NCBI RefSeq assembly: GCF_037392515.1 | Contig: NC_090294.1 | Location: forward strand, 7,329,870 to 7,393,869 | Length of the DNA: 64,000 nucleotides | From: Haliotis asinina | Taxonomy: Eukaryota | Direction of reading: 5' to 3' | Shown here: one piece after another, positions 1-61,267 of the stretch | Numbering within the stretch: position 1 is the first letter of the stretch | How the letters are laid out: the number at the start of each line of letters is the position of its first letter | Position numbers and translations under genes: made by a program | The notes under the pieces: model-generated | What the model was told of the DNA's origin: nothing | Databases searched by the model: none | Seen by the model: the letters and a program-made list of their open reading frames with translations, nothing else

Positions 1-2112
1 AGACATTATGACATATCTGCCTGAGACGAAATTACGAAAGACGGGAAAACTGACACAACGCACGAGCACAGGATCGGCACACAGCAGCAATGTCACTGTT
101 ACAAGGGGTTGCTATATACACATGTATGTGTAATACTGCAGTCTGTCCACGTGATGACCGCCTGCTTAATAGACTGATGAAATCTCCCAATAGCATGACA
201 TTCTCTCCGAATGTTAACATTATCACCACACTTAAACTAAAAACTACAATAACGTCATTTCCCAGAAGGTATATGCATATACTAGTGCCTTTTCACAAAG
301 GGATTGTAACTATCAATTGTCACAGCACGTATTTATCGCTTACAAACTAAGCATGGTTGTCTTCTGAAAACACGATAAGGTTTCCCTCATGAACTACAGC
401 ATGTTCCCTCGTATTTGTAGACTTTCCTTTGCATGTGTTTCTGATTGCTGTAGCAGAGGGTTAGCATACACGTCCCTCCTTCGCCAGCACGTTGTGTCAT
501 CCCTATTTGATAGCAAGTCATGCACACATCCCTAGGATATAACACAACCGTACAGTGGACTCTGCCTGTAGTGCCAATTCCTGACAGTTACACAAAGGAT
601 TGGGTCGCTTTACTTGACAGCTATTTTCTTTCAAGCAACTCTCCATTTCTTAATATCACCTTTCTGAGGAAGCAGAATTCACTTATCATAAAGGCAACAA
701 TAGTACTGAAACATATACTGGTTACTAAGCAAGACACCAGGTGCTAGCCAACAATTTCTAGTTGTAAATATTTGTTAGATGTTTCACGACCTTTCCATTC
801 GGTCTTCCTTGTTCCAAACTGAAGGAATATTGTCTTTGGATAATTGGATAATGTCTCAACAAATGCTACAATGCAGTGTATATTTGCATGGCTACAGCAA
901 GTTTTAATCACTGTTGCAAGTGATTCACTTCAATAAGTTTTGGGCTTCAAGCGAATGTTTGAAAACAAACAGCAGTAGGAAGAAGAAGTAGAAAACTCGA
1001 CTTTATCCTTCACACAAGCCCTTTACATGATGAAAACAGTCTTCAGTGTGTTCACAGATAATGTTACCCTTGCGTTCAAATCAATCAAGAACTTTATTAC
1101 ATGTCTACCATATCCGATCGGAAACACCCAATTACCGTCTGATTTGATAAATATATACGTTTTGATAGAGATAAATACGTCTCCTGTTAATGAGAGCAGC
1201 GGAATACAAACGGTTATTATATATCATGAAATCTGGAAGCAAACTTCCCCAGTAGTGTACAAAATGCTTGATATTTTCATCAAGTGTTATCGACTATTGA
1301 TAGCATGGTAAATACAACTTTAGTAGTATGTAGTAACTTATGATTCTAGGCTTTTCGTTATGTTTATATGATAAATAAACCGACGGAATGTGCTACAGTA
1401 ACTTCTGATTGTAGACCTTTTCACTTGGAACGGGATACTCACTTGCATTCGAATCGCATACTGTGCACAATGGCTACTACTAAAGATTTCATGCACATGA
1501 AGATGCACACATGACTCAACTCCGAGTATTTTCGGATTTCACAATGACATCACCGAAGCCCTTCGTGGCAGCACAAATGATATATTTGCATGAGACATGG
1601 AACCGAATAAGAGATGGCATGTAGGAAATATATGTGAAGCCTTCAATACCCCTATCATATTCAGTCTCATTTCTCCAGGAAATTCGAAGCACATTTTATA
1701 ACTTGCCGCCAGTGCTTGCAGCAAAACTGATTACCAGTTAAATATTTGGATGTAGTGGAACGTTTTGTAAACGTTGAATTTAGTTTTATGATTTTCAAAC
1801 AAAGCACAAATCGTTTGTATTTTAATTTTTATTGAACCAGTTGTATTGTCATGAGTATACAAAATAAGGAGTAATAAGTTCTCTTCACACTGCAGGTGAC
1901 AGTAACTCAGTAATAGCCGATTCCTGAAACAGAAAGGGTAGTTACATGTAAAATAGGGATTTACGGAAAAGTAACATGGAAATGTTGAAACTATCCCAAG
2001 CATTTCAAACAGCTGACGACAGTTTGAAAGATGTTTATCAGCTGAAAATATCGTATTTGCGTAGAATAATAATAAAGACATGTGTACATGATGTTATTCA
2101 ATAAAGTGAAGT

Positions 2113-2442
2113 TTAAAATGGGATAAGGAGTGAAATTATGTATCGCGAAATACCTTTTCCTAATCCGATTCCATATCCTGGCATTCCGTAGAAACCACCG
2201 TAGCCTCCATACAGACTTCCCAGGCCGTATCCGTATTTGCCTCCATACAGACCGCCCATTCCTCCGTACGGGCCATAGCCGTAGCCTCCGTAAAAACCTC
2301 CGTGCATTGCACCTATTCCGTAGCCTAATACGCCAGCTCCTCCAAACAACCCACCCATTCCATGTGCTCCATACAGACCGGTTGGTTCAGCGAAGGCGGT
2401 AACAGCCAAGCAGACAACAAGGACGGCGACAATCTTCATCAT
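2113..2442 (-). CDS. Secreted Gly/Tyr-rich low-complexity protein (GGY/GYG repeat; shematrin/NLP-like class), array copy 1. Protein: MMKIVAVLVVCLAVTAFA|EPTGLYGAHGMGGLFGGAGVLGYGIGAMHGGFYGGYGYGPYGGMGGLYGGKYGYGLGSLYGGYGGFYGMPGYGIGLGKGISRYIISLLIPF
   Basis: ORF 2113..2556(-). The likely true start is ATGATG at 2442-2437 (minus), giving an N-terminal hydrophobic signal peptide with an A-F-A|E cleavage-like site. The mature part is about 40% Gly and about 17% Tyr with no Cys. The stop is TAA at 2115-2113. A possible 5'UTR acceptor ttactgaacag lies 9 nt upstream of the ATG. A possible alternative donor GKG|gtatttcg lies near the 3' end, so the C-terminus is uncertain. Confidence 0.7.
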   Translation of the reverse strand: MMKIVAVLVVCLAVTAFAEPTGLYGAHGMGGLFGGAGVLGYGIGAMHGGFYGGYGYGPYGGMGGLYGGKYGYGLGSLYGGYGGFYGMPGYGIGLGKGISRYIISLLIPF

Positions 2443-5292
2443 TTTGAGTATCTGTTCAGTAACATGAAAATCATCTTCATGACAGGGAAACAACATGTTA
2501 TCATTACTCGTCTGGAGATTTTTCTCCACGGCACACGTGATCAATGATATTATCATGTTTTATTTCACAAGCAACCACATATTTCCACACTGACAAGAAC
2601 GGTAAATAGCACTTACACAGTCACAGTTTACTGAATTGGATCAATGTAAAAGTTGAGAAAGTAGAGGTGTGCAGCAAAAGAATGAAAACGTCAGACTGCA
2701 CATGCTTACCACAGGCAAACCTTGAAATGGTACTTACAATTTGGTCTGAAGACGTAACTGTGTCCTAGCAGTTGATGAAGAAAGAGATGATAGAATATTT
2801 TTCCCCTTACCTTTATATATACAATTTGTGAACTACATGTGATTGATTTACCTTAGGTTGGCCACTTCCAGGTAAGCAACACACCTAAATGTTAATGATG
2901 TGAACTGACCATTCTTTTCGCCTCAAATGACTTGCCTCAGGTTATCACCCTAAGGCTATACATGTGTGCTGGTGTACTTGAACATTCATAAAGGAAGTAG
3001 AGGGTGGTATATAATAGGGTGTAGGTCTCTCTTCGTATATCTTTTTCATCTCTCTTTGGCATGTTTTAACTGCATTTAGAAAACAAATAACTTGCAGGTA
3101 CTCAACTTTGAACCAGTATTAGGCCAATAGTCGTTTAACAGCTGTCTATCCATTACACTTGGGATGGAGCAATGTAGATCAGACATTATGACATATCTGC
3201 CTGAGACGAAATTACGAAAGACGGGAAAACTGACACAACGCACGAGCACAGGATCGGCACACAGCAGCAATGTCACTGTTACAAGGGGTTGCTATATACA
3301 CATGTATGTGTAATACTGCAGTCTGTCCACGTGATGACCGCCTGCTTAATAGACTGATGAAATCTCCCAATAGCATGACATTCTCTCCGAATGTTAACAT
3401 TATCACCACACTTAAACTAAAAACTACAATAACGTCATTTCCCAGAAGGTATATGCATATACTAGTGCCTTTTCACAAAGGGATTGTAACTATCAATTGT
3501 CACAGCACGTATTTATCGCTTACAAACTAAGCATGGTTGTCTTCGGAAAACACGATAAGGTTTCCCTCATGAACTACAGCATGTTCCCTCGTATTTGTAG
3601 ACTTTCCTTTGCATGTGTTTCTGATTGCTGTAGCAGAGGGTTAGCATACACGTCCCTCCTTCGCCAGCACGTTGTGTCATCCCTATTTGATAGCAAGTCA
3701 TGCACACATCCCTAGGATATAACACAACCGTACAGTGGACTCTGCCTGTAGTGCCAATTCCTGACAGTTACACAAAGGATTGGGTCGCTTTACTTGACAG
3801 CTATTTTCTTTCAAGCAACTCTCCATTTCTTAATATCACCTTTCTGAGGAAGCAGAATTCACTTATCATAAAGGCAACAATAGTACTGAAACATATACTG
3901 GTTACTAAGTAAGACACCAGGTGCTAGCCAACAATTTCTAGTTGTAAATATTTGTTAGATGTTTCACGACCTTTCCATTCGGTCTTCCTTGTTCCAAACT
4001 GAAGGAAAATTGTCTTTGGATAATTGGATAATGTCTCAACAAATGCTACAATGCAGTGTATATTTGCATGGCTACAGCAAGTTTTAATCACTGTTGCAAG
4101 TGATTCACTTCAATAAGTTTTGGGCTTCAAGCGAATGTTTGAAAACAAACAGCAGTAGGAAGAAGAAGTAGAAAACTCGACTTTATCCTTCACACAAGCC
4201 CTTTGCATGATGAAAACAGTCTTCAGTGTGTTCACAGATAATGTTACCCTTGCGTTCAAATCAATCAAGAACTTTATTACATGTCTACCATATCCGATCG
4301 GAAACACCCAATTACCGTCTGATTTGATAAATATATACGTTTTGATAGAGATAAATACGTCTCCTGTTAATGAGAGCAGCGGAATACAAACGGTTATTAT
4401 ATATCATGAAATCTGGAAGCAAACTTCCCCAGTAGTGTACAAAATGCTTGATATTTTCATCAAGTGTTATCGACTATTGATAGCATGGTAAATACAACTT
4501 TAGTAGTATGTAGTAACTTATGATTCTAGGCTTTTCGTTATGTTTATATGATAAATAAACCGACGGAATGTGCTACAGTAACTTCTGATTGTAGACCTTT
4601 TCACTTGGAACGGGATACTCACTTGCATTCGAATCGCATACTGTGCACAATGGCTACTACTAAAGATTTCATGCACATGAAGATGCACACATGACTCAAC
4701 TCCGAGTATTTTCGGATTTCACAATGACATCACCGAAGCCCTTCGTGGCAGCACAAATGATATATTTGCATGAGAGATGGAACCGAATAAGAGATGGCAT
4801 GTAGGAAATATATGTGAAGCCTTCAATACCCCTATCATATTCAGTCTCATTTCTCCAGGAAATTCGAAGCACATTTTATAACTTGCCGCCAGTGCTTGCA
4901 GCAAAACTGATTACCAGTTAAATATTTGGATGTAGTGGAACGTTTTGTAAACGTTGAATTTAGTTTTATGATTTTCAAACAAAGCACAAATCGTTTGTAT
5001 TTTAATTTTTATTGAACCAGTTGTATTGTCATGAGTATACAAAATAAGGAGTAATAAGTTCTCTTCACACTGCAGGTGACAGTAACTCAGTAATAGCCGA
5101 TTCCTGAAACAGAAAGGGTAGTTACATGTAAAATAGGGATTTACGGAAAAGTAACATGGAAATGTTGAAACTATCCCAAGCATTTCAAACAGCTGACGAC
5201 AGTTTGAAAGATGTTTATCAGCTGAAAATATCGTATTTGCGTAGAATAATAATAAAGACATGTGTACATGATGTTATTCAATAAAGTGAAGT

Positions 5293-5622
5293 TTAAAATG
5301 GGATAAGGAGTGAAATTATGTATCGCGAAATACCTTTTCCTAATCCGATTCCATATCCTGGCATTCCGTAGAAACCACCGTAGCCTCCATACAGACTTCC
5401 CAGGCCGTATCCGTATTTGCCTCCATACAGACCGCCCATTCCTCCGTACGGGCCATAGCCGTAGCCTCCGTAAAAACCTCCGTGCATTGCACCTATTCCG
5501 TAGCCTAATACGCCAGCTCCTCCAAACAACCCACCCATTCCATGTGCTCCATACAGACCGGTTGGTTCAGCGAAGGCGGTAACAGCCAAGCAGACAACAA
5601 GGACGGCGACAATCTTCATCAT
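5293..5622 (-). CDS. Secreted Gly/Tyr-rich protein, array copy 2 (identical protein)
   Basis: ORF 5293..5736(-) has an identical translation to copy 1. Confidence 0.7.
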   Translation of the reverse strand: MMKIVAVLVVCLAVTAFAEPTGLYGAHGMGGLFGGAGVLGYGIGAMHGGFYGGYGYGPYGGMGGLYGGKYGYGLGSLYGGYGGFYGMPGYGIGLGKGISRYIISLLIPF

Positions 5623-8472
5623 TTTGAGTATCTGTTCAGTAACATGAAAATCATCTTCATGACAGGGAAACAACATGTTATCATTACTCGTCTGGAGATT
5701 TTTCTCCACGGCACACGTGATCAATGATATTATCATGTTTTATTTCACAAGCAACCACATATTTCCACACTGACAAGAACGGTAAATAGCACTTACACAG
5801 TCACAGTTTACTGAATTGGATCAATGTAAAAGTTGAGAAAGTAGAGGTGTGCAGCAAAAGAATGAAAACGTCAGACTGCACATGCTTACCACAGGCAAAC
5901 CTTGAAATGGTACTTACAATTTGGTCTGAAGACGTAACTGTGTCCTAGCAGTTGATGAAGAAAGAGATGATAGAATATTTTTCCCCTTACCTTTATATAT
6001 ACAATTTGTGAACTACATGTGATTGATTTACCTTAGGTTGGCCACTTCCAGGTAAGCAACACACCTAAATGTTAATGATGTGAACTGACCATTCTTTTCG
6101 CCTCAAATGACTTGCCTCAGGTTATCACCCTAAGGCTATACATGTGTGCTGGTGTACTTGAACATTCATAAAGGAAGTAGAGGGTGGTATATAATAGGGT
6201 GTAGGTCTCTCTTCGTATATCTTTTTCATCTCTCTTTGGCATGTTTTAACTGCATTTAGAAAACAAATAACTTGCAGGTACTCAACTTTGAACCAGTATT
6301 AGGCCAATAGTCGTTTAACAGCTGTCTATCCATTACACTTGGGATGGAGCAATGTAGATCAGACATTATGACATATCTGCCTGAGACGAAATTACGAAAG
6401 ACGGGAAAACTGACACAACGCACGAGCACAGGATCGGCACACAGCAGCAATGTCACTGTTACAAGGGGTTGCTATATACACATGTATGTGTAATACTGCA
6501 GTCTGTCCACGTGATGACCGCCTGCTTAATAGACTGATGAAATCTCCCAATAGCATGACATTCTCTCCGAATGTTAACATTATCACCACACTTAAACTAA
6601 AAACTACAATAACGTCATTTCCCAGAAGGTATATGCATATACTAGTGCCTTTTCACAAAGGGATTGTAACTATCAATTGTCACAGCACGTATTTATCGCT
6701 TACAAACTAAGCATGGTTGTCTTCGGAAAACACGATAAGGTTTCCCTCATGAACTACAGCATGTTCCCTCGTATTTGTAGACTTTCCTTTGCATGTGTTT
6801 CTGATTGCTGTAGCAGAGGGTTAGCATACACGTCCCTCCTTCGCCAGCACGTTGTGTCATCCCTATTTGATAGCAAGTCATGCACACATCCCTAGGATAT
6901 AACACAACCGTACAGTGGACTCTGCCTGTAGTGCCAATTCCTGACAGTTACACAAAGGATTGGGTCGCTTTACTTGACAGCTATTTTCTTTCAAGCAACT
7001 CTCCATTTCTTAATATCACCTTTCTGAGGAAGCAGAATTCACTTATCATAAAGGCAACAATAGTACTGAAACATATACTGGTTACTAAGTAAGACACCAG
7101 GTGCTAGCCAACAATTTCTAGTTGTAAATATTTGTTAGATGTTTCACGACCTTTCCATTCGGTCTTCCTTGTTCCAAACTGAAGGAAAATTGTCTTTGGA
7201 TAATTGGATAATGTCTCAACAAATGCTACAATGCAGTGTATATTTGCATGGCTACAGCAAGTTTTAATCACTGTTGCAAGTGATTCACTTCAATAAGTTT
7301 TGGGCTTCAAGCGAATGTTTGAAAACAAACAGCAGTAGGAAGAAGAAGTAGAAAACTCGACTTTATCCTTCACACAAGCCCTTTGCATGATGAAAACAGT
7401 CTTCAGTGTGTTCACAGATAATGTTACCCTTGCGTTCAAATCAATCAAGAACTTTATTACATGTCTACCATATCCGATCGGAAACACCCAATTACCGTCT
7501 GATTTGATAAATATATACGTTTTGATAGAGATAAATACGTCTCCTGTTAATGAGAGCAGCGGAATACAAACGGTTATTATATATCATGAAATCTGGAAGC
7601 AAACTTCCCCAGTAGTGTACAAAATGCTTGATATTTTCATCAAGTGTTATCGACTATTGATAGCATGGTAAATACAACTTTAGTAGTATGTAGTAACTTA
7701 TGATTCTAGGCTTTTCGTTATGTTTATATGATAAATAAACCGACGGAATGTGCTACAGTAACTTCTGATTGTAGACCTTTTCACTTGGAACGGGATACTC
7801 ACTTGCATTCGAATCGCATACTGTGCACAATGGCTACTACTAAAGATTTCATGCACATGAAGATGCACACATGACTCAACTCCGAGTATTTTCGGATTTC
7901 ACAATGACATCACCGAAGCCCTTCGTGGCAGCACAAATGATATATTTGCATGAGACATGGAACCGAATAAGAGATGGCATGTAGGAAATATATGTGAAGC
8001 CTTCAATACCCCTATCATATTCAGTCTCATTTCTCCAGGAAATTCGAAGCACATTTTATAACTTGCCGCCAGTGCTTGCAGCAAAACTGATTACCAGTTA
8101 AATATTTGGATGTAGTGGAACGTTTTGTAAACGTTGAATTTAGTTTTATGATTTTCAAACAAAGCACAAATCGTTTGTATTTTAATTTTTATTGAACCAG
8201 TTGTATTGTCATGAGTATACAAAATAAGGAGTAATAAGTTCTCTTCACACTGCAGGTGACAGTAACTCAGTAATAGCCGATTCCTGAAACAGAAAGGGTA
8301 GTTACATGTAAAATAGGGATTTACGGAAAAGTAACATGGAAATGTTGAAACTATCCCAAGCATTTCAAACAGCTGACGACAGTTTGAAAGATGTTTATCA
8401 GCTGAAAATATCGTATTTGCGTAGAATAATAATAAAGACATGTGTACATGATGTTATTCAATAAAGTGAAGT

Positions 8473-8802
8473 TTAAAATGGGATAAGGAGTGAAATTATG
8501 TATCGCGAAATACCTTTTCCTAATCCGATTCCATATCCTGGCATTCCGTAGAAACCACCGTAGCCTCCATACAGACTTCCCAGGCCGTATCCGTATTTGC
8601 CTCCATACAGACCGCCCATTCCTCCGTACGGGCCATAGCCGTAGCCTCCGTAAAAACCTCCGTGCATTGCACCTATTCCGTAGCCTAATACGCCAGCTCC
8701 TCCAAACAACCCACCCATTCCATGTGCTCCATACAGACCGGTTGGTTCAGCGAAGGCGGTAACAGCCAAGCAGACAACAAGGACGGCGACAATCTTCATC
8801 AT
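8473..8802 (-). CDS. Secreted Gly/Tyr-rich protein, array copy 3 (identical protein)
   Basis: ORF 8473..8916(-) has an identical translation. Confidence 0.7.
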   Translation of the reverse strand: MMKIVAVLVVCLAVTAFAEPTGLYGAHGMGGLFGGAGVLGYGIGAMHGGFYGGYGYGPYGGMGGLYGGKYGYGLGSLYGGYGGFYGMPGYGIGLGKGISRYIISLLIPF

Positions 8803-11652
8803 TTTGAGTATCTGTTCAGTAACATGAAAATCATCTTCATGACAGGGAAACAACATGTTATCATTACTCGTCTGGAGATTTTTCTCCACGGCACACGTGA
8901 TCAATGATATTATCATGTTTTATTTCACAAGCAACCACATATTTCCACACTGACAAGAACGGTAAATAGCACTTACACAGTCACAGTTTACTGAATTGGA
9001 TCAATGTAAAAGTTGAGAAAGTAGAGGTGTGCAGCAAAAGAATGAAAACGTCAGACTGCACATGCTTACCACAGGCAAACCTTGAAATGGTACTTACAAT
9101 TTGGTCTGAAGACGTAACTGTGTCCTAGCAGTTGATGAAGAAAGAGATGATAGAATATTTTTCCCCTTACCTTTATATATACAATTTGTGAACTACATGT
9201 GATTGATTTACCTTAGGTTGGCCACTTCCAGGTAAGCAACACACCTAAATGTTAATGATGTGAACTGACCATTCTTTTCGCCTCAAATGACTTGCCTCAG
9301 GTTATCACCCTAAGGCTATACATGTGTGCTGGTGTACTTGAACATTCATAAAGGAAGTAGAGGGTGGTATATAATAGGGTGTAGGTCTCTCTTCGTATAT
9401 CTTTTTCATCTCTCTTTGGCATGTTTTAACTGCATTTAGAAAACAAATAACTTGCAGGTACTCAACTTTGAACCAGTATTAGGCCAATAGTCGTTTAACA
9501 GCTGTCTATCCATTACACTTGGGATGGAGCAATGTAGATCAGACATTATGACATATCTGCCTGAGACGAAATTACGAAAGACGGGAAAACTGACACAACG
9601 CACGAGCACAGGATCGGCACACAGCAGCAATGTCACTGTTACAAGGGGTTGCTATATACACATGTATGTGTAATACTGCAGTCTGTCCACGTGATGACCG
9701 CCTGCTTAATAGACTGATGAAATCTCCCAATAGCATGACATTCTCTCCGAATGTTAACATTATCACCACACTTAAACTAAAAACTACAATAACGTCATTT
9801 CCCAGAAGGTATATGCATATACTAGTGCCTTTTCACAAAGGGATTGTAACTATCAATTGTCACAGCACGTATTTATCGCTTACAAACTAAGCATGGTTGT
9901 CTTCGGAAAACACGATAAGGTTTCCCTCATGAACTACAGCATGTTCCCTCGTATTTGTAGACTTTCCTTTGCATGTGTTTCTGATTGCTGTAGCAGAGGG
10001 TTAGCATACACGTCCCTCCTTCGCCAGCACGTTGTGTCATCCCTATTTGATAGCAAGTCATGCACACATCCCTAGGATATAACACAACCGTACAGTGGAC
10101 TCTGCCTGTAGTGCCAATTCCTGACAGTTACACAAAGGATTGGGTCGCTTTACTTGACAGCTATTTTCTTTCAAGCAACTCTCCATTTCTTAATATCACC
10201 TTTCTGAGGAAGCAGAATTCACTTATCATAAAGGCAACAATAGTACTGAAACATATACTGGTTACTAAGTAAGACACCAGGTGCTAGCCAACAATTTCTA
10301 GTTGTAAATATTTGTTAGATGTTTCACGACCTTTCCATTCGGTCTTCCTTGTTCCAAACTGAAGGAAAATTGTCTTTGGATAATTGGATAATGTCTCAAC
10401 AAATGCTACAATGCAGTGTATATTTGCATGGCTACAGCAAGTTTTAATCACTGTTGCAAGTGATTCACTTCAATAAGTTTTGGGCTTCAAGCGAATGTTT
10501 GAAAACAAACAGCAGTAGGAAGAAGAAGTAGAAAACTCGACTTTATCCTTCACACAAGCCCTTTGCATGATGAAAACAGTCTTCAGTGTGTTCACAGATA
10601 ATGTTACCCTTGCGTTCAAATCAATCAAGAACTTTATTACATGTCTACCATATCCGATCGGAAACACCCAATTACCGTCTGATTTGATAAATATATACGT
10701 TTTGATAGAGATAAATACGTCTCCTGTTAATGAGAGCAGCGGAATACAAACGGTTATTATATATCATGAAATCTGGAAGCAAACTTCCCCAGTAGTGTAC
10801 AAAATGCTTGATATTTTCATCAAGTGTTATCGACTATTGATAGCATGGTAAATACAACTTTAGTAGTATGTAGTAACTTATGATTCTAGGCTTTTCGTTA
10901 TGTTTATATGATAAATAAACCGACGGAATGTGCTACAGTAACTTCTGATTGTAGACCTTTTCACTTGGAACGGGATACTCACTTGCATTCGAATCGCATA
11001 CTGTGCACAATGGCTACTACTAAAGATTTCATGCACATGAAGATGCACACATGACTCAACTCCGAGTATTTTCGGATTTCACAATGACATCACCGAAGCC
11101 CTTCGTGGCAGCACAAATGATATATTTGCATGAGAGATGGAACCGAATAAGAGATGGCATGTAGGAAATATATGTGAAGCCTTCAATACCCCTATCATAT
11201 TCAGTCTCATTTCTCCAGGAAATTCGAAGCACATTTTATAACTTGCCGCCAGTGCTTGCAGCAAAACTGATTACCAGTTAAATATTTGGATGTAGTGGAA
11301 CGTTTTGTAAACGTTGAATTTAGTTTTATGATTTTCAAACAAAGCACAAATCGTTTGTATTTTAATTTTTATTGAACCAGTTGTATTGTCATGAGTATAC
11401 AAAATAAGGAGTAATAAGTTCTCTTCACACTGCAGGTGACAGTAACTCAGTAATAGCCGATTCCTGAAACAGAAAGGGTAGTTACATGTAAAATAGGGAT
11501 TTACGGAAAAGTAACATGGAAATGTTGAAACTATCCCAAGCATTTCAAACAGCTGACGACAGTTTGAAAGATGTTTATCAGCTGAAAATATCGTATTTGC
11601 GTAGAATAATAATAAAGACATGTGTACATGATGTTATTCAATAAAGTGAAGT

Positions 11653-11982
11653 TTAAAATGGGATAAGGAGTGAAATTATGTATCGCGAAATACCTTTTCC
11701 TAATCCGATTCCATATCCTGGCATTCCGTAGAAACCACCGTAGCCTCCATACAGACTTCCCAGGCCGTATCCGTATTTGCCTCCATACAGACCGCCCATT
11801 CCTCCGTACGGGCCATAGCCGTAGCCTCCGTAAAAACCTCCGTGCATTGCACCTATTCCGTAGCCTAATACGCCAGCTCCTCCAAACAACCCACCCATTC
11901 CATGTGCTCCATACAGACCGGTTGGTTCAGCGAAGGCGGTAACAGCCAAGCAGACAACAAGGACGGCGACAATCTTCATCAT
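11653..11982 (-). CDS. Secreted Gly/Tyr-rich protein, array copy 4 (identical protein)
   Basis: ORF 11653..12096(-) has an identical translation. Confidence 0.7.
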   Translation of the reverse strand: MMKIVAVLVVCLAVTAFAEPTGLYGAHGMGGLFGGAGVLGYGIGAMHGGFYGGYGYGPYGGMGGLYGGKYGYGLGSLYGGYGGFYGMPGYGIGLGKGISRYIISLLIPF

Positions 11983-14832
11983 TTTGAGTATCTGTTCAGT
12001 AACATGAAAATCATCTTCATGACAGGGAAACAACATGTTATCATTACTCGTCTGGAGATTTTTCTCCACGGCACACGTGATCAATGATATTATCATGTTT
12101 TATTTCACAAGCAACCACATATTTCCACACTGACAAGAACGGTAAATAGCACTTACACAGTCACAGTTTACTGAATTGGATCAATGTAAACGTTGAGAAA
12201 GTAGAGGTGTGCAGCAAAAGAATGAAAACGTCAGACTGCACATGCTTACCACAGGCAAACCTTGAAATGGTACTTACAATTTGGTCTGAAGACGTAACTG
12301 TGTCCTAGCAGTTGATGAAGAAAGAGATGATAGAATATTTTTCCCCTTACCTTTATATATACAATTTGTGAACTACATGTGATTGATTTACCTTAGGTTG
12401 GCCACTTCCAGGTAAGCAACACACCTAAATGTTAATGATGTGAACTGACCATTCTTTTCGCCTCAAATGACTTGCCTCAGGTTATCACCCTAAGGCTATA
12501 CATGTGTGCTGGTGTACTTGAACATTCATAAAGGAAGTAGAGGGTGGTATATAATAGGGTGTAGGTCTCTCTTCGTATATCTTTTTCATCTCTCTTTGGC
12601 ATGTTTTAACTGCATTTAGAAAACAAATAACTTGCAGGTACTCAACTTTGAACCAGTATTAGGCCAATAGTCGTTTAACAGCTGTCTATCCATTACACTT
12701 GGGATGGAGCAATGTAGATCAGACATTATGACATATCTGCCTGAGACGAAATTACGAAAGACGGGAAAACTGACACAACGCACGAGCACAGGATCGGCAC
12801 ACAGCAGCAATGTCACTGTTACAAGGGGTTGCTATATACACATGTATGTGTAATACTGCAGTCTGTCCACGTGATGACCGCCTGCTTAATAGACTGATGA
12901 AATCTCCCAATAGCATGACATTCTCTCCGAATGTTAACATTATCACCACACTTAAACTAAAAACTACAATAACGTCATTTCCCAGAAGGTATATGCATAT
13001 ACTAGTGCCTTTTCACAAAGGGATTGTAACTATCAATTGTCACAGCACGTATTTATCGCTTACAAACTAAGCATGGTTGTCTTCGGAAAACACGATAAGG
13101 TTTCCCTCATGAACTACAGCATGTTCCCTCGTATTTGTAGACTTTCCTTTGCATGTGTTTCTGATTGCTGTAGCAGAGGGTTAGCATACACGTCCCTCCT
13201 TCGCCAGCACGTTGTGTCATCCCTATTTGATAGCAAGTCATGCACACATCCCTAGGATATAACACAACCGTACAGTGGACTCTGCCTGTAGTGCCAATTC
13301 CTGACAGTTACACAAAGGATTGGGTCGCTTTACTTGACAGCTATTTTCTTTCAAGCAACTCTCCATTTCTTAATATCACCTTTCTGAGGAAGCAGAATTC
13401 ACTTATCATAAAGGCAACAATAGTACTGAAACATATACTGGTTACTAAGCAAGACACCAGGTGCTAGCCAACAATTTCTAGTTGTAAATATTTGTTAGAT
13501 GTTTCACGACCTTTCCATTCGGTCTTCCTTGTTCCAAACTGAAGGAATATTGTCTTTGGATAATTGGATAATGTCTCAACAAATGCTACAATGCAGTGTA
13601 TATTTGCATGGCTACAGCAAGTTTTAATCACTGTTGCAAGTGATTCACTTCAATAAGTTTTGGGCTTCAAGCGAATGTTTGAAAACAAACAGCAGTAGGA
13701 AGAAGAAGTAGAAAACTCGACTTTATCCTTCACACAAGCCCTTTGCATGATGAAAACAGTCTTCAGTGTGTTCACAGATAATGTTACCCTTGCGTTCAAA
13801 TCAATCAAGAACTTTATTACATGTCTACCATATCCGATCGGAAACACCCAATTACCGTCTGATTTGATAAATATATACGTTTTGATAGAGATAAATACGT
13901 CTCCTGTTAATGAGAGCAGCGGAATACAAACGGTTATTATATATCATGAAATCTGGAAGCAAACTTCCCCAGTAGTGTACAAAATGCTTGATATTTTCAT
14001 CAAGTGTTATCGACTATTGATAGCATGGTAAATACAACTTTAGTAGTATGTAGTAACTTATGATTCTAGGCTTTTCGTTATGTTTATATGATAAATAAAC
14101 CGACGGAATGTGCTACAGTAACTTCTGATTGTAGACCTTTTCACTTGGAACGGGATACTCACTTGCATTCGAATCGCATACTGTGCACAATGGCTACTAC
14201 TAAAGATTTCATGCACATGAAGATGCACACATGACTCAACTCCGAGTATTTTCGGATTTCACAATGACATCACCGAAGCCCTTCGTGGCAGCACAAATGA
14301 TATATTTGCATGAGAGATGGAACCGAATAAGAGATGGCATGTAGGAAATATATGTGAAGCCTTCAATACCCCTATCATATTCAGTCTCATTTCTCCAGGA
14401 AATTCGAAGCACATTTTATAACTTGCCGCCAGTGCTTGCAGCAAAACTGATTACCAGTTAAATATTTGGATGTAGTGGAACGTTTTGTAAACGTTGAATT
14501 TAGTTTTATGATTTTCAAACAAAGCACAAATCGTTTGTATTTTAATTTTTATTGAACCAGTTGTATTGTCATGAGTATACAAAATAAGGAGTAATAAGTT
14601 CTCTTCACACTGCAGGTGACAGTAACTCAGTAATAGCCGATTCCTGAAACAGAAAGGGTAGTTACATGTAAAATAGGGATTTACGGAAAAGTAACATGGA
14701 AATGTTGAAACTATCCCAAGCATTTCAAACAGCTGACGACAGTTTGAAAGATGTTTATCAGCTGAAAATATCGTATTTGCGTAGAATAATAATAAAGACA
14801 TGTGTACATGATGTTATTCAATAAAGTGAAGT

Positions 14833-15162
14833 TTAAAATGGGATAAGGAGTGAAATTATGTATCGCGAAATACCTTTTCCTAATCCGATTCCATATCCTG
14901 GCATTCCGTAGAAACCACCGTAGCCTCCATACAGACTTCCCAGGCCGTATCCGTATTTGCCTCCATACAGACCGCCCATTCCTCCGTACGGGCCATAGCC
15001 GTAGCCTCCGTAAAAACCTCCGTGCATTGCACCTATTCCGTAGCCTAATACGCCAGCTCCTCCAAACAACCCACCCATTCCATGTGCTCCATACAGACCG
15101 GTTGGTTCAGCGAAGGCGGTAACAGCCAAGCAGACAACAAGGACGGCGACAATCTTCATCAT
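14833..15162 (-). CDS. Secreted Gly/Tyr-rich protein, array copy 5 (identical protein)
   Basis: ORF 14833..15276(-) has an identical translation. Confidence 0.7.
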   Translation of the reverse strand: MMKIVAVLVVCLAVTAFAEPTGLYGAHGMGGLFGGAGVLGYGIGAMHGGFYGGYGYGPYGGMGGLYGGKYGYGLGSLYGGYGGFYGMPGYGIGLGKGISRYIISLLIPF

Positions 15163-18012
15163 TTTGAGTATCTGTTCAGTAACATGAAAATCATCTTCAT
15201 GACAGGGAAACAACATGTTATCATTACTCGTCTGGAGATTTTTCTCCACGGCACACGTGATCAATGATATTATCATGTTTTATTTCACAAGCAACCACAT
15301 ATTTCCACACTGACAAGAACGGTAAATAGCACTTACACAGTCACAGTTTACTGAATTGGATCAATGTAAAAGTTGAGAAAGTAGAGGTGTGCAGCAAAAG
15401 AATGAAAACGTCAGACTGCACATGCTTACCACAGGCAAACCTTGAAATGGTACTTACAATTTGGTCTGAAGACGTAACTGTGTCCTAGCAGTTGATGAAG
15501 AAAGAGATGATAGAATATTTTTCCCCTTACCTTTATATATACAATTTGTGAACTACATGTGATTGATTTACCTTAGGTTGGCCACTTCCAGGTAAGCAAC
15601 ACACCTAAATGTTAATGATGTGAACTGACCATTCTTTTCGCCTCAAATGACTTGCCTCAGGTTATCACCCTAAGGCTATACATGTGTGCTGGTGTACTTG
15701 AACATTCATAAAGGAAGTAGAGGGTGGTATATAATAGGGTGTAGGTCTCTCTTCGTATATCTTTTTCATCTCTCTTTGGCATGTTTTAACTGCATTTAGA
15801 AAACAAATAACTTGCAGGTACTCAACTTTGAACCAGTATTAGGCCAATAGTCGTTTAACAGCTGTCTATCCATTACACTTGGGATGGAGCAATGTAGATC
15901 AGACATTATGACATATCTGCCTGAGACGAAATTACGAAAGACGGGAAAACTGACACAACGCACGAGCACAGGATCGGCACACAGCAGCAATGTCACTGTT
16001 ACAAGGGGTTGCTATATACACATGTATGTGTAATACTGCAGTCTGTCCACGTGATGACCGCCTGCTTAATAGACTGATGAAATCTCCCAATAGCATGACA
16101 TTCTCTCCGAATGTTAACATTATCACCACACTTAAACTAAAAACTACAATAACGTCATTTCCCAGAAGGTATATGCATATACTAGTGCCTTTTCACAAAG
16201 GGATTGTAACTATCAATTGTCACAGCACGTATTTATCGCTTACAAACTAAGCATGGTTGTCTTCGGAAAACACGATAAGGTTTCCCTCATGAACTACAGC
16301 ATGTTCCCTCGTATTTGTAGACTTTCCTTTGCATGTGTTTCTGATTGCTGTAGCAGAGGGTTAGCATACACGTCCCTCCTTCGCCAGCACGTTGTGTCAT
16401 CCCTATTTGATAGCAAGGCATGCACACATCCCTAGGATATAACACAACCGTACAGTGGACTCTGCCTGTAGTGCCAATTCCTGACAGTTACACAAAGGAT
16501 TGGGTCGCTTTACTTGACAGCTATTTTCTTTCAAGCAACTCTCCATTTCTTAATATCACCTTTCTGAGGAAGCAGAATTCACTTATCATAAAGGCAACAA
16601 TAGTACTGAAACATATACTGGTTACTAAGCAAGACACCAGGTGCTAGCCAACAATTTCTAGTTGTAAATATTTGTTAGATGTTTCACGACCTTTCCATTC
16701 GGTCTTCCTTGTTCCAAACTGAAGGAATATTGTCTTTGGATAATTGGATAATGTCTCAACAAATGCTACAATGCAGTGTATATTTGCATGGCTACAGCAA
16801 GTTTTAATCACTGTTGCAAGTGATTCACTTCAATAAGTTTTGGGCTTCAAGCGAATGTTTGAAAACAAACAGCAGTAGGAAGAAGAAGTAGAAAACTCGA
16901 CTTTATCCTTCACACAAGCCCTTTGCATGATGAAAACAGTCTTCAGTGTGTTCACAGATAATGTTACCCTTGCGTTCAAATCAATCAAGAACTTTATTAC
17001 ATGTCTACCATATCCGATCGGAAACACCCAATTACCGTCTGATTTGATAAATATATACGTTTTGATAGAGATAAATACGTCTCCTGTTAATGAGAGCAGC
17101 GGAATACAAACGGTTATTATATATCATGAAATCTGGAAGCAAACTTCCCCAGTAGTGTACAAAATGCTTGATATTTTCATCAAGTGTTATCGACTATTGA
17201 TAGCATGGTAAATACAACTTTAGTAGTATGTAGTAACTTATGATTCTAGGCTTTTCGTTATGTTTATATGATAAATAAACCGACGGAATGTGCTACAGTA
17301 ACTTCTGATTGTAGACCTTTTCACTTGGAACGGGATACTCACTTGCATTCGAATCGCATACTGTGCACAATGGCTACTACTAAAGATTTCATGCACATGA
17401 AGATGCACACATGACTCAACTCCGAGTATTTTCGGATTTCACAATGACATCACCGAAGCCCTTCGTGGCAGCACAAATGATATATTTGCATGAGAGATGG
17501 AACCGAATAAGAGATGGCATGTAGGAAATATATGTGAAGCCTTCAATACCCCTATCATATTCAGTCTCATTTCTCCAGGAAATTCGAAGCACATTTTATA
17601 ACTTGCCGCCAGTGCTTGCAGCAAAACTGATTACCAGTTAAATATTTGGATGTAGTGGAACGTTTTGTAAACGTTGAATTTAGTTTTATGATTTTCAAAC
17701 AAAGCACAAATCGTTTGTATTTTAATTTTTATTGAACCAGTTGTATTGTCATGAGTATACAAAATAAGGAGTAATAAGTTCTCTTCACACTGCAGGTGAC
17801 AGTAACTCAGTAATAGCCGATTCCTGAAACAGAAAGGGTAGTTACATGTAAAATAGGGATTTACGGAAAAGTAACATGGAAATGTTGAAACTATCCCAAG
17901 CATTTCAAACAGCTGACGACAGTTTGAAAGATGTTTATCAGCTGAAAATATCGTATTTGCGTAGAATAATAATAAAGACATGTGTACATGATGTTATTCA
18001 ATAAAGTGAAGT

Positions 18013-18342
18013 TTAAAATGGGATAAGGAGTGAAATTATGTATCGCGAAATACCTTTTCCTAATCCGATTCCATATCCTGGCATTCCGTAGAAACCACCG
18101 TAGCCTCCATACAGACTTCCCAGGCCGTATCCGTATTTGCCTCCATACAGACCGCCCATTCCTCCGTACGGGCCATAGCCGTAGCCTCCGTAAAAACCTC
18201 CGTGCATTGCACCTATTCCGTAGCCTAATACGCCAGCTCCTCCAAACAACCCACCCATTCCATGTGCTCCATACAGACCGGTTGGTTCAGCGAAGGCGGT
18301 AACAGCCAAGCAGACAACAAGGACGGCGACAATCTTCATCAT
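18013..18342 (-). CDS. Secreted Gly/Tyr-rich protein, array copy 6 (identical protein)
   Basis: ORF 18013..18456(-) has an identical translation. Confidence 0.7.
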   Translation of the reverse strand: MMKIVAVLVVCLAVTAFAEPTGLYGAHGMGGLFGGAGVLGYGIGAMHGGFYGGYGYGPYGGMGGLYGGKYGYGLGSLYGGYGGFYGMPGYGIGLGKGISRYIISLLIPF

Positions 18343-19080
18343 TTTGAGTATCTGTTCAGTAACATGAAAATCATCTTCATGACAGGGAAACAACATGTTA
18401 TCATTACTCGTCTGGAGATTTTTCTCCACGGCACACGTGATCAATGATATTATCATGTTTTATTTCACAAGCAACCACATATTTCCACACTGACAAGAAC
18501 GGTAAATAGCACTTACACAGTCACAGTTTACTGAATTGGATCAATGTAAAAGTTGAGAAAGTAGAGGTGTGCAGCAAAAGAATGAAAACGTCAGACTGCA
18601 CATGCTTACCACAGGCAAACCTTGAAATGGTACTTACAATTTGGTCTGAAGACGTAACTGTGTCCTAGCAGTTGATGAAGAAAGAGATGATAGAATATTT
18701 TTCCCCTTACCTTTATATATACAATTTGTGAACTACATGTGATTGATTTACCTTAGGTTGGCCACTTCCAGGTAAGCAACACACCTAAATGTTAATGATG
18801 TGAACTGACCATTCTTTTCGCCTCAAATGACTTGCCTCAGGTTATCACCCTAAGGCTATACATGTGTGCTGGTGTACTTGAACATTCATAAAGGAAGTAG
18901 AGGGTGGTATATAATAGGGTGTAGGTCTCTCTTCGTATATCTTTTTCATCTCTCTTTGGCATGTTTTAACTGCATTTAGAAAACAAATAACTTGCAGGTA
19001 CTCAACTTTGAACCAGTATTAGGCCAATAGTCGTTTAACAGCTGTCTATCCATTACACTTGGGATGGAGCAATGTAGATC

Positions 19081-20115
19081 AGACATTATGACATATCTGC
19101 CTGAGACGAAATTACGAAAGACGGGAAAACTGACACAACGCACGAGCACAGGATCGGCACACAGCAGCAATGTCACTGTTACAAGGGGTTGCTATATACA
19201 CATGTATGTGTAATACTGCAGTCTGTCCACGTGATGACCGCCTGCTTAATAGACTGATGAAATCTCCCAATAGCATGACATTCTCTCCGAATGTTAACAT
19301 TATCACCACACTTAAACTAAAAACTACAATAACGTCATTTCCCAGAAGGTATATGCATATACTAGTGACTTTTCACAAAGGGATTGTAACTATCAATTGT
19401 CACAGCACGTATTTATCGCTTACAAACTAAGCATGGTTTCCCTCATGAACTACAGCATGTTCCTCGTATTTGTAGACTTTCCTTTGCATGTGTTTCTGAT
19501 TGCTGTAGCAGAGGGTTAGCATACACGTCCCTCCTTCGCCAGCTTGATATTTTCATCAGGTGTTATCGACTAATGATAGCATGGTAGATACAACTTTAGT
19601 AGTATGTAGTAACTTATGATTCTAGGCTCTTCGTTTTGTTTGTATGATAAATAAACCGACGGAATGTGCTACAGTAACTTCTGATTGTAGACCTTTTCAC
19701 TTGGAACGGGATACTCACTTGCATTCGAATCGCATACTGTGCACAATGGCTACTACTAAAGATTTCATGCACATGAAGATGCACACATGACTCAACTCCG
19801 AGTATTTTCGGATTTCACAATGACATCACCGAAGCCCTTCGTGGCAGCACAAATGATATATTTGCATGAGAGATGGAACCGAATAAGAGATGGCATGTAG
19901 GAAATATATGTGAAGCCTTCAATACCCCTATCATATTCAGTCTCATTTCTCCAGGAAATTCGAAGCACATTTTATAGGTTGACAGCAGTCGCCACACTTA
20001 CAGCAGTGTCACTGTTATAACGGGTTACTTTGTACACATCTATGTGTAATACTGCTGCCTGTCCATGCGATGACCGCCTTTTGAAATATCCCAATAGCTT
20101 GATATTCTCCCTGAA
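19081..20115. repeat. Degenerate 7th array unit / array boundary: unit positions 1-357 intact, then a 24-bp deletion flanked by ggtt microhomology (at about 19438), a ~780-bp deletion (junction cagc|ttga at about 19548), unit about 1268-1712, then an about 80%-identical fragment of unit 65-235
   Basis: Direct alignment by eye against the unit. Unit sequence ends at cacattttata and re-enters a diverged copy of the unit start (ggttgacagcagtcgccacacttacagcagtgtcactgttataacggg...). This copy lacks the Gly/Tyr ORF. Confidence 0.85.
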
Positions 20116-20400
20116 TGTTAAAGATCACACATACTCTAGTTCAAATATAAAGTACAAGTACAAATATAAAGTACAAATAGTACAAATATAAAGTCACTTG
20201 CTGACATCGCTATAAATGAAACCGAACCATTAAAACTACTCATTTCGACCTTAAATTAACTTATATCGACCTTTTTGTCAGCAGTGCACAATTCCCAGCC
20301 GCGAACGAAATTTCAACCAATCAGAGCAGCGCGTCTCCGTGAGGTAATTGTAGGTATGTAGAAATGAGGGTCTGTGCAGTATTCATCTACATTTCAGGGG

Positions 20401-25254: not shown

Positions 25255-25385
25255 ATCACTATCTACACGTCTACGTGTAATACTGCAGCCTGTCCACACG
25301 ACATACACTAGTGCCTTTTCACAAAGGCACTGCATTTGTCAATTGTCACAGCACGCACTTGTCTACTAAAGATTATACCATACTG
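25255..25385 (+). repeat. Dispersed diverged fragment of the 3.18-kb array unit (matches unit about 120-150 and about 285-350, with about 140 bp deleted)
   Basis: gtgtaatactgcagcctgtccac...actagtgccttttcacaaaggcactgcatttgtcaattgtcacagcacg matches unit gtgtaatactgcagtctgtccac...actagtgccttttcacaaagggattgtaactatcaattgtcacagcacg. Confidence 0.6.
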
Positions 25386-32768: not shown

Positions 32769-32774
32769 GCATAC

Positions 32775-33007: not shown

Positions 33008-33084
33008 CTGCATCAAGGTGAGAGGTGAAAGTTCATAAGTAGAGAACACAAAAACTGTAAAGGTATGAACAGGTAATGAGGCAT

Positions 33085-61170: not shown

Positions 61171-61267
61171 TCCAGTCCTCTGCCCGCTTTGTATCACTTG
61201 ATGAAAATATGCTATCTCTCAAGACTTTGCTTCAGCCGCTTCCTATGTCCGTTTTCAGATTGTGAGA

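What the first reader, a model, noticed from the sequence alone, without database searches (positions are those of the whole stretch)
1..19080. Near-identical 6x (or more) tandem amplification of a 3.18-kb unit, each encoding a secreted Gly/Tyr-rich mini-protein
Six complete head-to-tail copies (>99.8% identity) each carry the same ~109-aa ORF: a signal peptide followed by GLYGG / GYGG / GFYGG repeats, about 40% Gly, about 17% Tyr, no Cys. Arrays this young, large-unit and gene-bearing are unusual. They imply either strong dosage selection (structural, biomineralisation or adhesive proteins, or GY-rich antimicrobial peptides, are typical beneficiaries) or very recent unequal crossing-over. The array runs off the 5' edge of the window, so the true copy number is unknown.
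Basis: seen in the sequence. Interest (0 to 1): 0.8.

Follow-up and report, generated by a model that had tools for sequence, protein, structure and literature searches.

The report
Abalone glycine/tyrosine-rich secreted-protein gene array
The window holds six almost identical 3.18-kb tandem copies of a small abalone (Haliotis asinina) gene for a secreted, glycine/tyrosine-rich 8-kDa protein; the array is real and part of a much larger abalone-specific gene cluster, a known kind of gene amplification in molluscs, and what the protein does has not been tested.

Summary
Positions 1-19080 are six head-to-tail units of exactly 3180 bp. They have no indels and 1-6 mismatches per pair (99.81-99.97% identity).

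A decayed, gene-less seventh partial unit continues to about 19989, and the array runs off the 5' edge.

The window is Haliotis asinina chromosome 15. Each unit carries one minus-strand gene. The spliced product is 101 aa (signal peptide, 83-aa Gly/Tyr-rich mature part, C-terminus GKGIGYY). It is identical to RefSeq models named 'glycine-rich protein-like'.

At least 28 copies of two subtypes are annotated on this chromosome. H. cracherodii has its own 4.17-kb tandem array, and H. rubra has two copies. The exon-intron structure is conserved between H. asinina and H. cracherodii. No relatives were found outside Haliotis.

Near-identical interior units, decayed edge units, mosaic variants and synonymous-only coding changes point to homogenisation by unequal crossing-over or gene conversion, under purifying selection.

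The function is inferred, not shown. Most likely it is a bulk secreted structural or matrix protein that can be cross-linked through tyrosine, in the manner of shematrin or Has-tsfgr1. The rival is a glycine-rich defence peptide. I rate it a new member of a known kind, of moderate interest.

The parts
1..19080 (-). Six complete 3180-bp tandem units. The phase is set by the window edge, and the array continues beyond position 1.
   Evidence: Lag-3180 identity about 1.0. 8 variable columns, no indels. Pairwise differences 1-6.
19081..19989 (-). Degenerate seventh partial unit at the array edge. It covers unit 1-488 and 1266-1713, with a 777-bp deletion, a small indel near 19440 and 94.7-97.5% identity. 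It has no gene.
   Evidence: blastn of the unit against the flank; lag comparison.
1907..2442 (-). Gene copy 1, coding part. Exon 2442->2154 (289 nt: M1..K96 plus 1 nt), phase-1 intron 2153->1924 (GT..AG, 230 nt), terminal coding piece 1923->1907 (G-IGYY-stop). The product is 101 aa and equals P0120.
   Evidence: Sequence read. Splice model. 100% identical to RefSeq P0120, accessions XP_067657839-842 listed.
5087..5622 (-). Gene copy 2, same structure (+3180).
   Evidence: tblastn; no coding variants.
8267..8802 (-). Gene copy 3.
   Evidence: tblastn.
11447..11982 (-). Gene copy 4.
   Evidence: tblastn.
14627..15162 (-). Gene copy 5.
   Evidence: tblastn.
17807..18342 (-). Gene copy 6.
   Evidence: tblastn.
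2811..2819 (-). TATA-like box TATATAAAG upstream of copy 1, repeated every 3180 bp. A putative non-coding first exon runs about 2790->2738 with donor TT|GTAAGT, and an acceptor cag|ATACTCAAAATG lies at 2452/2451. All of this is inferred.
   Evidence: Read directly from the sequence. The acceptor agrees with the junction ...ETQ|ILKMMK in RefSeq model P0121.
1828..1833 (-). AATAAA polyadenylation signal 74 nt downstream of the stop codon of copy 1, repeated every 3180 bp.
   Evidence: Sequence.
19982..20157 (.). Diverged copy (74%) of a short dispersed element that also occurs once per unit (unit 68-337) and again at 25259-25363. It abuts the right edge of the array.

Best explanation
This is the right-hand end of a large tandem gene array on Haliotis asinina chromosome 15.

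Each 3.18-kb unit holds one small gene on the minus strand. The gene has a putative non-coding first exon, a 289-nt coding exon and a 17-nt terminal coding piece. It encodes a 101-aa precursor made of an 18-residue signal peptide and an 83-residue mature protein. The mature protein is about 8.1 kDa with pI about 8.2, contains 45% Gly, 18% Tyr and no Cys, is probably disordered, and ends in GKGIGYY.

The units stay nearly identical because unequal crossing-over and gene conversion homogenise them, while purifying selection preserves the protein. Copies at the edge of the array escape this process and decay.

The family is restricted to abalones as far as the searches can see, and it is amplified separately in different species.

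Inferred mechanism: many identical copies allow very high output of one small secreted protein from a secretory epithelium. That protein acts as bulk extracellular structural or matrix material. The most likely destination is the periostracum or outer shell framework made at the mantle edge, or another secreted material. Its many tyrosines would allow oxidative cross-linking by tyrosinase or peroxidase, and its Gly/aromatic repeats would favour self-association.

Shown: the array, the gene structure, the identity to RefSeq models, the orthologues, and the signs of homogenisation and constraint. Inferred: secretion, disorder, tissue and material function.
For: Array. The period is exactly 3180 bp, with 6 units, 8 variable columns and no indels.

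Organism. A flanking ORF is 100% identical to the H. asinina PCED1A-like protein on a 52,850,021-bp contig, which is Chr_15 of the HiFi/hifiasm assembly.

Gene model. My spliced 101-aa product is identical to RefSeq P0120. The donor AAAG|GT falls at the same coding position in H. asinina and H. cracherodii, the intron is 229-230 nt in both, and the terminal exon encodes GIGYY-stop in both, even though the two units share no detectable nucleotide similarity. A TATA-like box and an AATAAA signal are present.

Family. phmmer against 1.84 billion representative proteins, plus a profile search, found only Haliotis proteins. Precursor length is 101-103 aa in three species.

Copy number. RefSeq lists at least 10 type-1 accessions. 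One fused model joins 17 type-2 coding exons. H. cracherodii has 7 units in 28.9 kb at 98.9-99.8% identity, and more beyond.

Homogenisation. Interior units are 99.9% identical, while the edge unit is 94-97% identical and carries deletions. Columns 730/828 against column 1596 show all four allele combinations among units.

Constraint. No coding differences occur among the 6 H. asinina units. In H. cracherodii all 3 coding variants are synonymous third positions (P about 0.017).

Secretion and disorder. The N-terminus is hydrophobic (mean Kyte-Doolittle 3.1) with A-F-A before the predicted cleavage site. AlphaFold2 gives mean pLDDT 48.8, with only the signal helix above 60.

Functional analogy.
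- Has-tsfgr1 of the same species is 114 aa, with a signal peptide, Gly/Leu/Tyr repeats and a C-terminal Tyr. It is expressed in the larval shell field and at the juvenile mantle edge (PMC2034539).
- Gly-rich shematrin genes lie in tandem in Pinctada, and extra copies are proposed to raise transcript output (PMC4759782).
- Low-complexity shell proteins are easily missed by standard proteomics because they lack the usual protease cleavage sites (PMC4897951). This mature protein has no Arg and only 2 Lys.
Against: No expression, localisation or proteomic evidence exists for this protein. Its peptide strings appear in no searchable paper. The shell proteome papers for H. asinina and H. laevigata do not report a Gly/Tyr-rich protein like this one. 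The Iso-Seq tissues used for the genome paper did not include mantle.

Precursor length is held at 101-103 aa across species. That is unusual for slippage-prone structural repeat proteins and would suit a peptide of defined size.

Copy number within a 99.9%-identical array cannot be verified without reads.

The H. cracherodii array lies on a different scaffold from the orthologue of the flanking PCED1A gene, so positional orthology between the two arrays is not established.
Confidence: 0.5

Rival explanations
1. The product is a glycine-rich host-defence or mucus peptide. In this reading it is an 8-kDa secreted antimicrobial or antifungal peptide, in the manner of ctenidins, acanthoscurrins, holotricin-3 or the C. 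elegans NLP/CNC Gly/Tyr peptides, and the gene is amplified for a rapid, high-dose epithelial response.
For: The precursor is small, carries a signal peptide and has a conserved length of 101-103 aa in three species. The mature part is mildly basic, with pI 8.2-8.9. RefSeq's automatic names include 'neuropeptide-like protein 31' and 'ctenidin-1-like'. Gly/Leu-rich peptides with reported antibacterial activity occur in gastropod mucus (PMC11206429). From my own knowledge, the C. elegans nlp and cnc genes are also tandem clusters.
Against: Net charge is only about +1. There is no Arg and no mono- or dibasic processing site flanking repeated peptides. Gly is 45-52%, not above 70%. No sequence homology to any such family was detected; the automatic names differ between copies of the same family and so reflect composition. 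Nothing here shows induction or antimicrobial activity.
Confidence: 0.2
2. The array is a selectively neutral, very recent copy-number expansion: a segmental amplification that happens to contain a gene. Dosage selection plays no part, and the near-identity simply reflects young age.
For: Mean divergence between units is 0.096% with no indels among the six units. No coding differences exist that could test selection within H. asinina.
Against: Three Haliotis species carry more than one copy. H. cracherodii has its own tandem array with a different unit, and H. rubra has two convergent copies, while H. asinina has two subtypes each in many copies. The edge copy is much older (94-97% identity) than the interior copies. 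Mosaic variants imply repeated exchange between units. Coding variants in H. cracherodii are all synonymous.
Confidence: 0.15
3. Part of the array is an assembly artefact: the assembler over-expanded or mis-ordered a shorter repeat, so six copies and their order are not real.
For: Units are 99.9% identical, and the whole cluster is much longer than the mean HiFi read, which is about 13.8 kb (36.2 Gb in 2.62 M reads). Read depth could not be checked here.
Against: The assembly is HiFi at about 32x with hifiasm, and its reported QV is 65.5. A mean read spans about 4 units. All six units differ from one another, by 1-6 single-base variants per pair. An independent assembly of another species shows the same kind of array. 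Assemblers more often collapse such arrays than expand them (general knowledge).
Confidence: 0.07

Closest known systems
[quoted passage not shown] 2007, PMC2034539)
   Same: It is from the same species and has the same design: a precursor of about 100-115 aa, a 17-18-residue signal peptide, short Gly/Leu/Tyr repeats and a C-terminus ending in Tyr preceded by a Lys.
   Different: As described in the paper, it is a different sequence: 114 aa, 'GGYGLGL' repeats, C-terminus GYKGY and more than 52% Gly. The protein here is 101 aa with GLYGG, GYGG and GFYGG motifs and the C-terminus GKGIGYY. I could not obtain its sequence, so homology was not tested. No tandem array has been described for it.
Shematrin and KRMP families of pearl oysters (Pinctada)
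   Same: They are lineage-restricted, secreted shell-framework proteins rich in Gly and Tyr. They are encoded by tandemly arranged, rapidly evolving genes with lineage-specific expansions, and gene dosage is proposed to raise transcript output (PMC4759782; PMC4897951).
   Different: No detectable sequence homology. Shematrins are several times longer and end in a basic cluster followed by Tyr (RKKKY-type, from my own knowledge), whereas this protein ends in GKGIGYY. The Pinctada clusters hold a few diverged paralogues (five shematrin genes on two scaffolds), not tens of units at 99.9% identity. Shell localisation is shown for shematrins and not for this protein.
C. elegans NLP-29/31 and CNC (caenacin) Gly/Tyr-rich antimicrobial peptide clusters; spider ctenidins and acanthoscurrins
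   Same: They are small secreted Gly/Tyr-rich products encoded in tandem clusters (own knowledge). RefSeq's automatic names for some copies of this family point to them.
   Different: This protein has no Arg, no basic processing sites, low net charge and lower Gly content. No homology was detected.
Tandem multigene families kept uniform by concerted evolution (silkmoth chorion genes, mammalian high-Gly/Tyr keratin-associated protein clusters)
   Same: Many small genes for abundant structural proteins sit side by side and are kept similar by gene conversion or unequal exchange. Gene conversion among chorion genes is cited in PMC4944945. The keratin-associated protein comparison is from my own knowledge.
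   Different: These belong to different phyla and different protein families. Keratin-associated proteins are intracellular and contain Cys.

Membership tests
Tandem gene array under concerted evolution (a kind, not a protein family) | Head-to-tail units of constant length, each with an intact gene | tested here: met
   Six units of exactly 3180 bp, with identical coding sequences.
Tandem gene array under concerted evolution (a kind, not a protein family) | Units within a species far more alike than units between species | tested here: met
   99.9% identity within H. asinina and 98.9-99.8% within H. cracherodii. No blastn match between the two (E<1e-8) and about 60% protein identity by tblastn (69% in the three-sequence protein alignment).
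Tandem gene array under concerted evolution (a kind, not a protein family) | Edge units diverged or decayed relative to interior units; mosaic variants between units | tested here: met
   The seventh unit is 94-97% identical, carries deletions and has no gene. Columns 730/828 against 1596 show all four allele combinations.
Shematrin family (Pinctada) | Detectable sequence homology to shematrins | tested here: not met
   phmmer against 1.84 billion representatives and a profile search returned only Haliotis proteins, plus one spurious bacterial repeat protein. Pfam gave no family.
Shematrin family (Pinctada) | Signal peptide plus Gly-rich repeats bounded by hydrophobic or aromatic residues | tested here: met
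   Sequence and composition. This is a resemblance in composition only.
Shematrin family (Pinctada) | C-terminal basic motif ending in Tyr (RKKKY, RRKKY, RRRKY; motif recalled from the literature. [quoted passage not shown] | tested here: not met
   The C-terminus is GLGKGIGYY: a terminal Tyr and a single Lys, with no basic cluster.
Shematrin family (Pinctada) | Expression at the mantle edge and presence in the prismatic shell layer | not testable with these tools
   No expression data were available. The published abalone shell proteome papers do not report it.
Has-tsfgr1 | 114-aa product with 'GGYGLGL' repeats and C-terminus GYKGY | tested here: not met
   The product is 101 aa. 'GGYGLGL' is absent and the C-terminus is GIGYY. 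It is a different gene, and paralogy is possible but was not tested.
NLP-29/31-type Gly/Tyr antimicrobial peptide precursors (C. elegans) | Several Arg-containing YGG-type peptides separated by basic cleavage sites (own knowledge) | tested here: not met
   The mature part has no Arg, 2 isolated Lys and no dibasic site.
Ctenidin / acanthoscurrin Gly-rich antimicrobial peptides | Gly above 70%, clearly cationic, demonstrated antimicrobial activity (own knowledge) | tested here: inconclusive
   Gly is 45-52%, pI 8.2-8.9 and net charge about +1. Activity cannot be tested here.

The most novel reading that the evidence does not exclude
This abalone-specific 8-kDa Gly/Tyr protein could be something other than a shell-matrix component. 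It might be a previously unrecognised class of secreted effector, either an epithelial or mucus defence peptide or a coacervate-forming 'glue' protein. Its length is held at 101-103 aa across species while its repeats turn over, and each lineage has independently amplified it to tens of near-identical copies. That would make it one of the most highly amplified and homogenised protein-coding arrays described in a mollusc.
Probability: 0.15. Interest if true: 0.55.

Novelty: new member of a known kind. Interest (0 to 1): 0.35.

Why it matters
Molluscan secretomes are known to evolve through lineage-restricted, low-complexity secreted proteins and through gene duplication. This locus is an extreme and clean example: tens of copies at 99.9% identity, with a parallel array in a second abalone species. 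It could serve as a natural system for studying concerted evolution and dosage amplification in a mollusc.

It also flags a probably abundant abalone protein that standard trypsin-based shell proteomics would be likely to miss.

A practical point follows for annotation. Automatic pipelines fuse neighbouring units into false giant proteins (1967 aa and 979 aa) and give copies of one family five or six unrelated names. Anyone using these annotations should know this.

The finding does not reveal a new principle.

Tried and rejected
1. Extending the H. asinina array beyond the window. The look-up of encoding contigs holds no record for any H. asinina copy. The total copy number therefore rests on RefSeq accession lists and on fused gene models.

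2. Pfam on the Gly/Tyr protein and on 12 other ORFs of the unit: no family. The unit carries no other recognisable gene.

3. Rfam and tRNA scans of the whole window: nothing.

4. PDB sequence search: nothing. AlphaFold2 on the single sequence gave low confidence.

5. Literature. Peptide strings from the protein appear in no paper. Searches for Gly/Tyr-rich abalone shell proteins, 'shematrin-like' with abalone, 'ctenidin' with Haliotis, and the H. asinina mantle secretome found nothing describing this family. One search with 'neuropeptide-like protein 31' was too loosely set and gave nothing useful.

6. Origin of the array by recombination between copies of the short dispersed element (unit 68-337, and flank 19982-20157). 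I considered this and rejected it as a simple model. Exchange between those two copies would duplicate only the gene-less part of the unit, and no such element lies at the 1713|1714 junction.

7. Synteny. The H. cracherodii PCED1A locus (L002) matches window 27.7-57 kb but has no Gly/Tyr gene within 10 kb, and the H. cracherodii array sits on another scaffold. Whether the arrays are positional orthologues stays open.
Full report
**1. The observation**

Comparing the window with itself at a lag of 3180 bp gives identity of about 1.00 from position 1 to about 19438. Lags of 3178, 3179, 3181 and 3182 give random values near 0.25. Tandem Repeats Finder shows an internal 20-bp motif recurring every 3180 bp at 1143, 4323 and so on to 17043.

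Cutting 1-19080 into six units leaves only 8 variable columns out of 3180 and no indels. Pairwise differences are 1-6, with a mean of 3.07, which is 99.90% identity. The claim of six complete copies at more than 99.8% identity is therefore correct.

The array does not end at 19080. A seventh copy continues to about 19989, but it is decayed. Unit 1-488 aligns at 94.7% with a small indel near 19440. Unit 489-1265 is deleted. Unit 1266-1713 aligns at 97.5%. The copy stops before the gene. Because the periodic identity starts at position 1, the array runs off the 5' edge.

**2. The organism**

A flanking ORF at 29754-30572 (minus strand) is 100% identical to 'PC-esterase domain-containing protein 1A-like [Haliotis asinina]' on a contig of 52,850,021 bp. 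That length is Chr_15 (CM074540.1) of the published assembly. The assembly was built from PacBio HiFi reads (36.2 Gb for a 1.14-Gb genome, about 32x), hifiasm and Omni-C, and its reported QV is 65.5 (PMC11393055).

**3. The gene**

The ORF lies on the minus strand (2442->2113 in unit 1).

The sequence shows the following:
- a phase-1 donor, GGAAAAG|GTATTT, with the exon ending at 2154;
- a 230-nt intron;
- an acceptor, ctgtttcag|GAATCGGCTATTACTGA, with the exon starting at 1923. This adds G-I-G-Y-Y and a stop codon at 1909-1907.

The spliced 101-aa product is identical to RefSeq protein P0120 (XP_067657839-842 are the accessions listed; 'glycine-rich protein-like').

A TATA-like box lies at 2819-2811. 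Donor and acceptor sites for a putative 5' UTR intron are at 2738|2737 and 2452|2451, and the acceptor agrees with the junction in RefSeq model P0121. An AATAAA signal at 1833-1828 completes a compact transcription unit of about 1 kb. These last elements are inferred from sequence only.

All six coding sequences are identical. The only variant inside a gene is unit column 2651, in the putative 5' UTR intron. No other ORF of the unit matches Pfam, and there is no Rfam family or tRNA.

**4. The protein**

The N-terminus MMKIVAVLVVCLAVTAFA|EP has a strongly hydrophobic core (mean Kyte-Doolittle 3.1) and small residues at -3 and -1. That fits a cleaved signal peptide, but no dedicated predictor was available.

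The 83-aa mature part is 8.1 kDa with pI 8.2. It contains 45% Gly, 18% Tyr, 8% Leu, no Cys, no Arg and two Lys.

AlphaFold2 on the single sequence gives mean pLDDT 48.8, and only the signal helix scores above 60. This is compatible with disorder but is weak evidence. The protein matches no PDB sequence.

**5. The wider locus and family**

RefSeq holds at least ten type-1 proteins on the same chromosome:
- P0120, at least 4 accessions;
- P0001, with F50I, at least 4 accessions;
- P0119, with G64S, named 'neuropeptide-like protein 31';
- P0121, which carries an N-terminal extension not encoded in this window.

RefSeq also holds a second subtype that is 88% identical at the protein level. It appears in a 1967-aa model that is really 17 coding exons of neighbouring units spliced together, and in P0002. 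At least 28 copies are therefore annotated.

phmmer against 1.84 billion representative proteins found, besides the H. asinina clusters, one H. cracherodii cluster and one spurious bacterial repeat protein. A profile search added H. rubra 'ctenidin-1-like' and an unnamed 81-aa fragment.

Across the family the automatic names are 'glycine-rich protein-like', 'neuropeptide-like protein 31', 'shematrin-like protein 2', 'spidroin-1-like', 'ctenidin-1-like' and 'PE_PGRS54-like'. Names this inconsistent reflect amino-acid composition, not homology.

**6. Comparison between species**

In H. cracherodii, locus L001 holds seven tandem copies in 28.9 kb. The period is 4052-4192 bp and identity is 98.9-99.8%, with indels. 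More units lie beyond, because a 979-aa fused model spans seven.

L001 and the window show no blastn match at E<1e-8, even in the coding exon. Despite this, the gene architecture is the same. The donor falls at the same coding position, the intron is 229-230 nt, and the terminal exon encodes GIGYY-stop. The signal peptide, the EP start of the mature part and the GKGIGYY end are all conserved.

H. rubra (L003) has two convergent copies about 8 kb apart. That assembly may have collapsed any array.

Precursor length is 101-103 aa in all three species, although the internal repeats differ. H. cracherodii has a 27-bp repeat present 7.5 times, encoding GLYGGYGMG.

Among six H. cracherodii units, the three coding variants are all synonymous third-position changes. 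The probability of this under neutrality is about 0.017.

The H. cracherodii orthologue of the flanking PCED1A gene lies on a different scaffold from the H. cracherodii array, and it has no Gly/Tyr gene within 10 kb. Positional orthology of the arrays is therefore unresolved.

**7. How the array is maintained**

Four observations point the same way:
- Interior units are 99.9% identical, while the edge unit is 94-97% identical and carries deletions.
- Unit columns 730/828 group units 1, 5 and 6 against units 2-4, while column 1596 groups units 1 and 3. All four allele combinations are present, which requires exchange between units or recurrent mutation.
- Two subtypes within H. asinina are each found in many copies.
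- The units are species-specific.

This is the standard signature of homogenisation by unequal crossing-over and gene conversion, with purifying selection on the product. A single very recent burst explains the interior identity, but not the decayed edge copy or the presence of arrays in other species.

An assembly artefact cannot be excluded without reads, but several things argue against it. A mean HiFi read (about 13.8 kb) spans about four units. All six units differ from one another by 1-6 single-base variants. An independent assembly of another species shows the same kind of array.

**8. Function (inferred)**

No paper in the searchable library contains the peptide strings. The shell proteome papers for H. 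asinina and H. laevigata do not report such a protein. [quoted passage not shown]

The closest characterised analogue is Has-tsfgr1 of the same species. It is 114 aa, with a signal peptide, Gly/Leu/Tyr repeats and a C-terminal Tyr. It is expressed in the trochophore shell field and at the anterior edge of the juvenile outer mantle fold (PMC2034539). By its published description it is a different gene.

In Pinctada, Gly-rich shematrin genes are tandemly arranged, and increased copy number has been proposed to raise transcript output (PMC4759782). KRMP and shematrin families show lineage-specific expansions and very high mantle expression. Low-complexity matrix proteins are under-detected by proteomics because they lack the standard cleavage sites (PMC4897951).

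On this basis I favour a bulk secreted structural or matrix protein that can be cross-linked through tyrosine. My confidence is about 0.5 for the whole statement and about 0.9 for the genomic part.

The main rival is a Gly-rich defence or mucus peptide. The conserved small size, the mild basicity and the reports of Gly/Leu-rich antibacterial peptides in snail mucus (PMC11206429) speak for it. The near-neutral charge, the absence of Arg and of processing sites, and the lack of any detected homology speak against it.

**9. Verdict**

It is a new, uncharacterised member of a known kind, namely a lineage-restricted, tandemly amplified gene for a secreted low-complexity Gly/Tyr-rich protein in a mollusc. 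Its copy number and homogeneity are unusual.

The gene models already exist in RefSeq under misleading automatic names, and some neighbouring units are fused into false giant proteins. Interest is moderate.

Noticed in passing
RefSeq models P0122 (H. asinina, 1967 aa), P0125, P0123 and P0126 (H. cracherodii; L001 10001-18891 and 22525 onward): Automatic gene models splice the coding exons of neighbouring array units into false giant proteins, of 17 units and 7 units for the two largest. Copies of one family carry at least six unrelated names.
   Followed up: partly
window 31516-31999: A 20-bp minisatellite (TATCCTCCATGGACAGGTTC) occurs 24 times at 98% identity, between exon-like ORFs of the PCED1A-like gene (29754-30572 and 32609-33088, minus strand). 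It creates long spurious ORFs in three frames.
   Followed up: no
window 41199-41810 (-): A 203-aa ORF matches a Tc1/mariner-type transposase DNA-binding domain (HTH_Tnp_Tc3_2, E 1.6e-6, below Pfam's cut-off). It is probably a transposon remnant.
   Followed up: no
window unit 68-337 (each unit), 19982-20157, 25259-25363: A short dispersed element occurs once per array unit and twice more in the right flank, at 74-87% identity. One copy directly abuts the array edge, but a simple recombination model between these copies does not produce the observed unit.
   Followed up: partly
window 27735-28218; L002 about 13000-13430: A 174-bp repeat (2.8 copies) in the array-to-PCED1A spacer is similar (66-68%) to sequence inside the PCED1A gene span of H. 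cracherodii. It is probably a dispersed satellite or transposon.
   Followed up: no
L001 (H. cracherodii JAJLRC010000001.1) versus L002 (JAJLRC010000009.1): The H. cracherodii Gly/Tyr array and the orthologue of the gene flanking the H. asinina array lie on different chromosome-scale scaffolds. Either the array has moved or the species carry arrays at different sites.
   Followed up: partly
window 61262-61984 (+): A 240-aa ORF with no Pfam match. It may be an exon of an unidentified gene.
   Followed up: no
L003 13571-16089 (H. rubra) versus window 30734-32316: The spacer between the two convergent H. rubra copies shares 74-84% similarity with the PCED1A-region sequence that flanks the 20-bp minisatellite in the window. 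This suggests a mobile element that carries the minisatellite.
   Followed up: no
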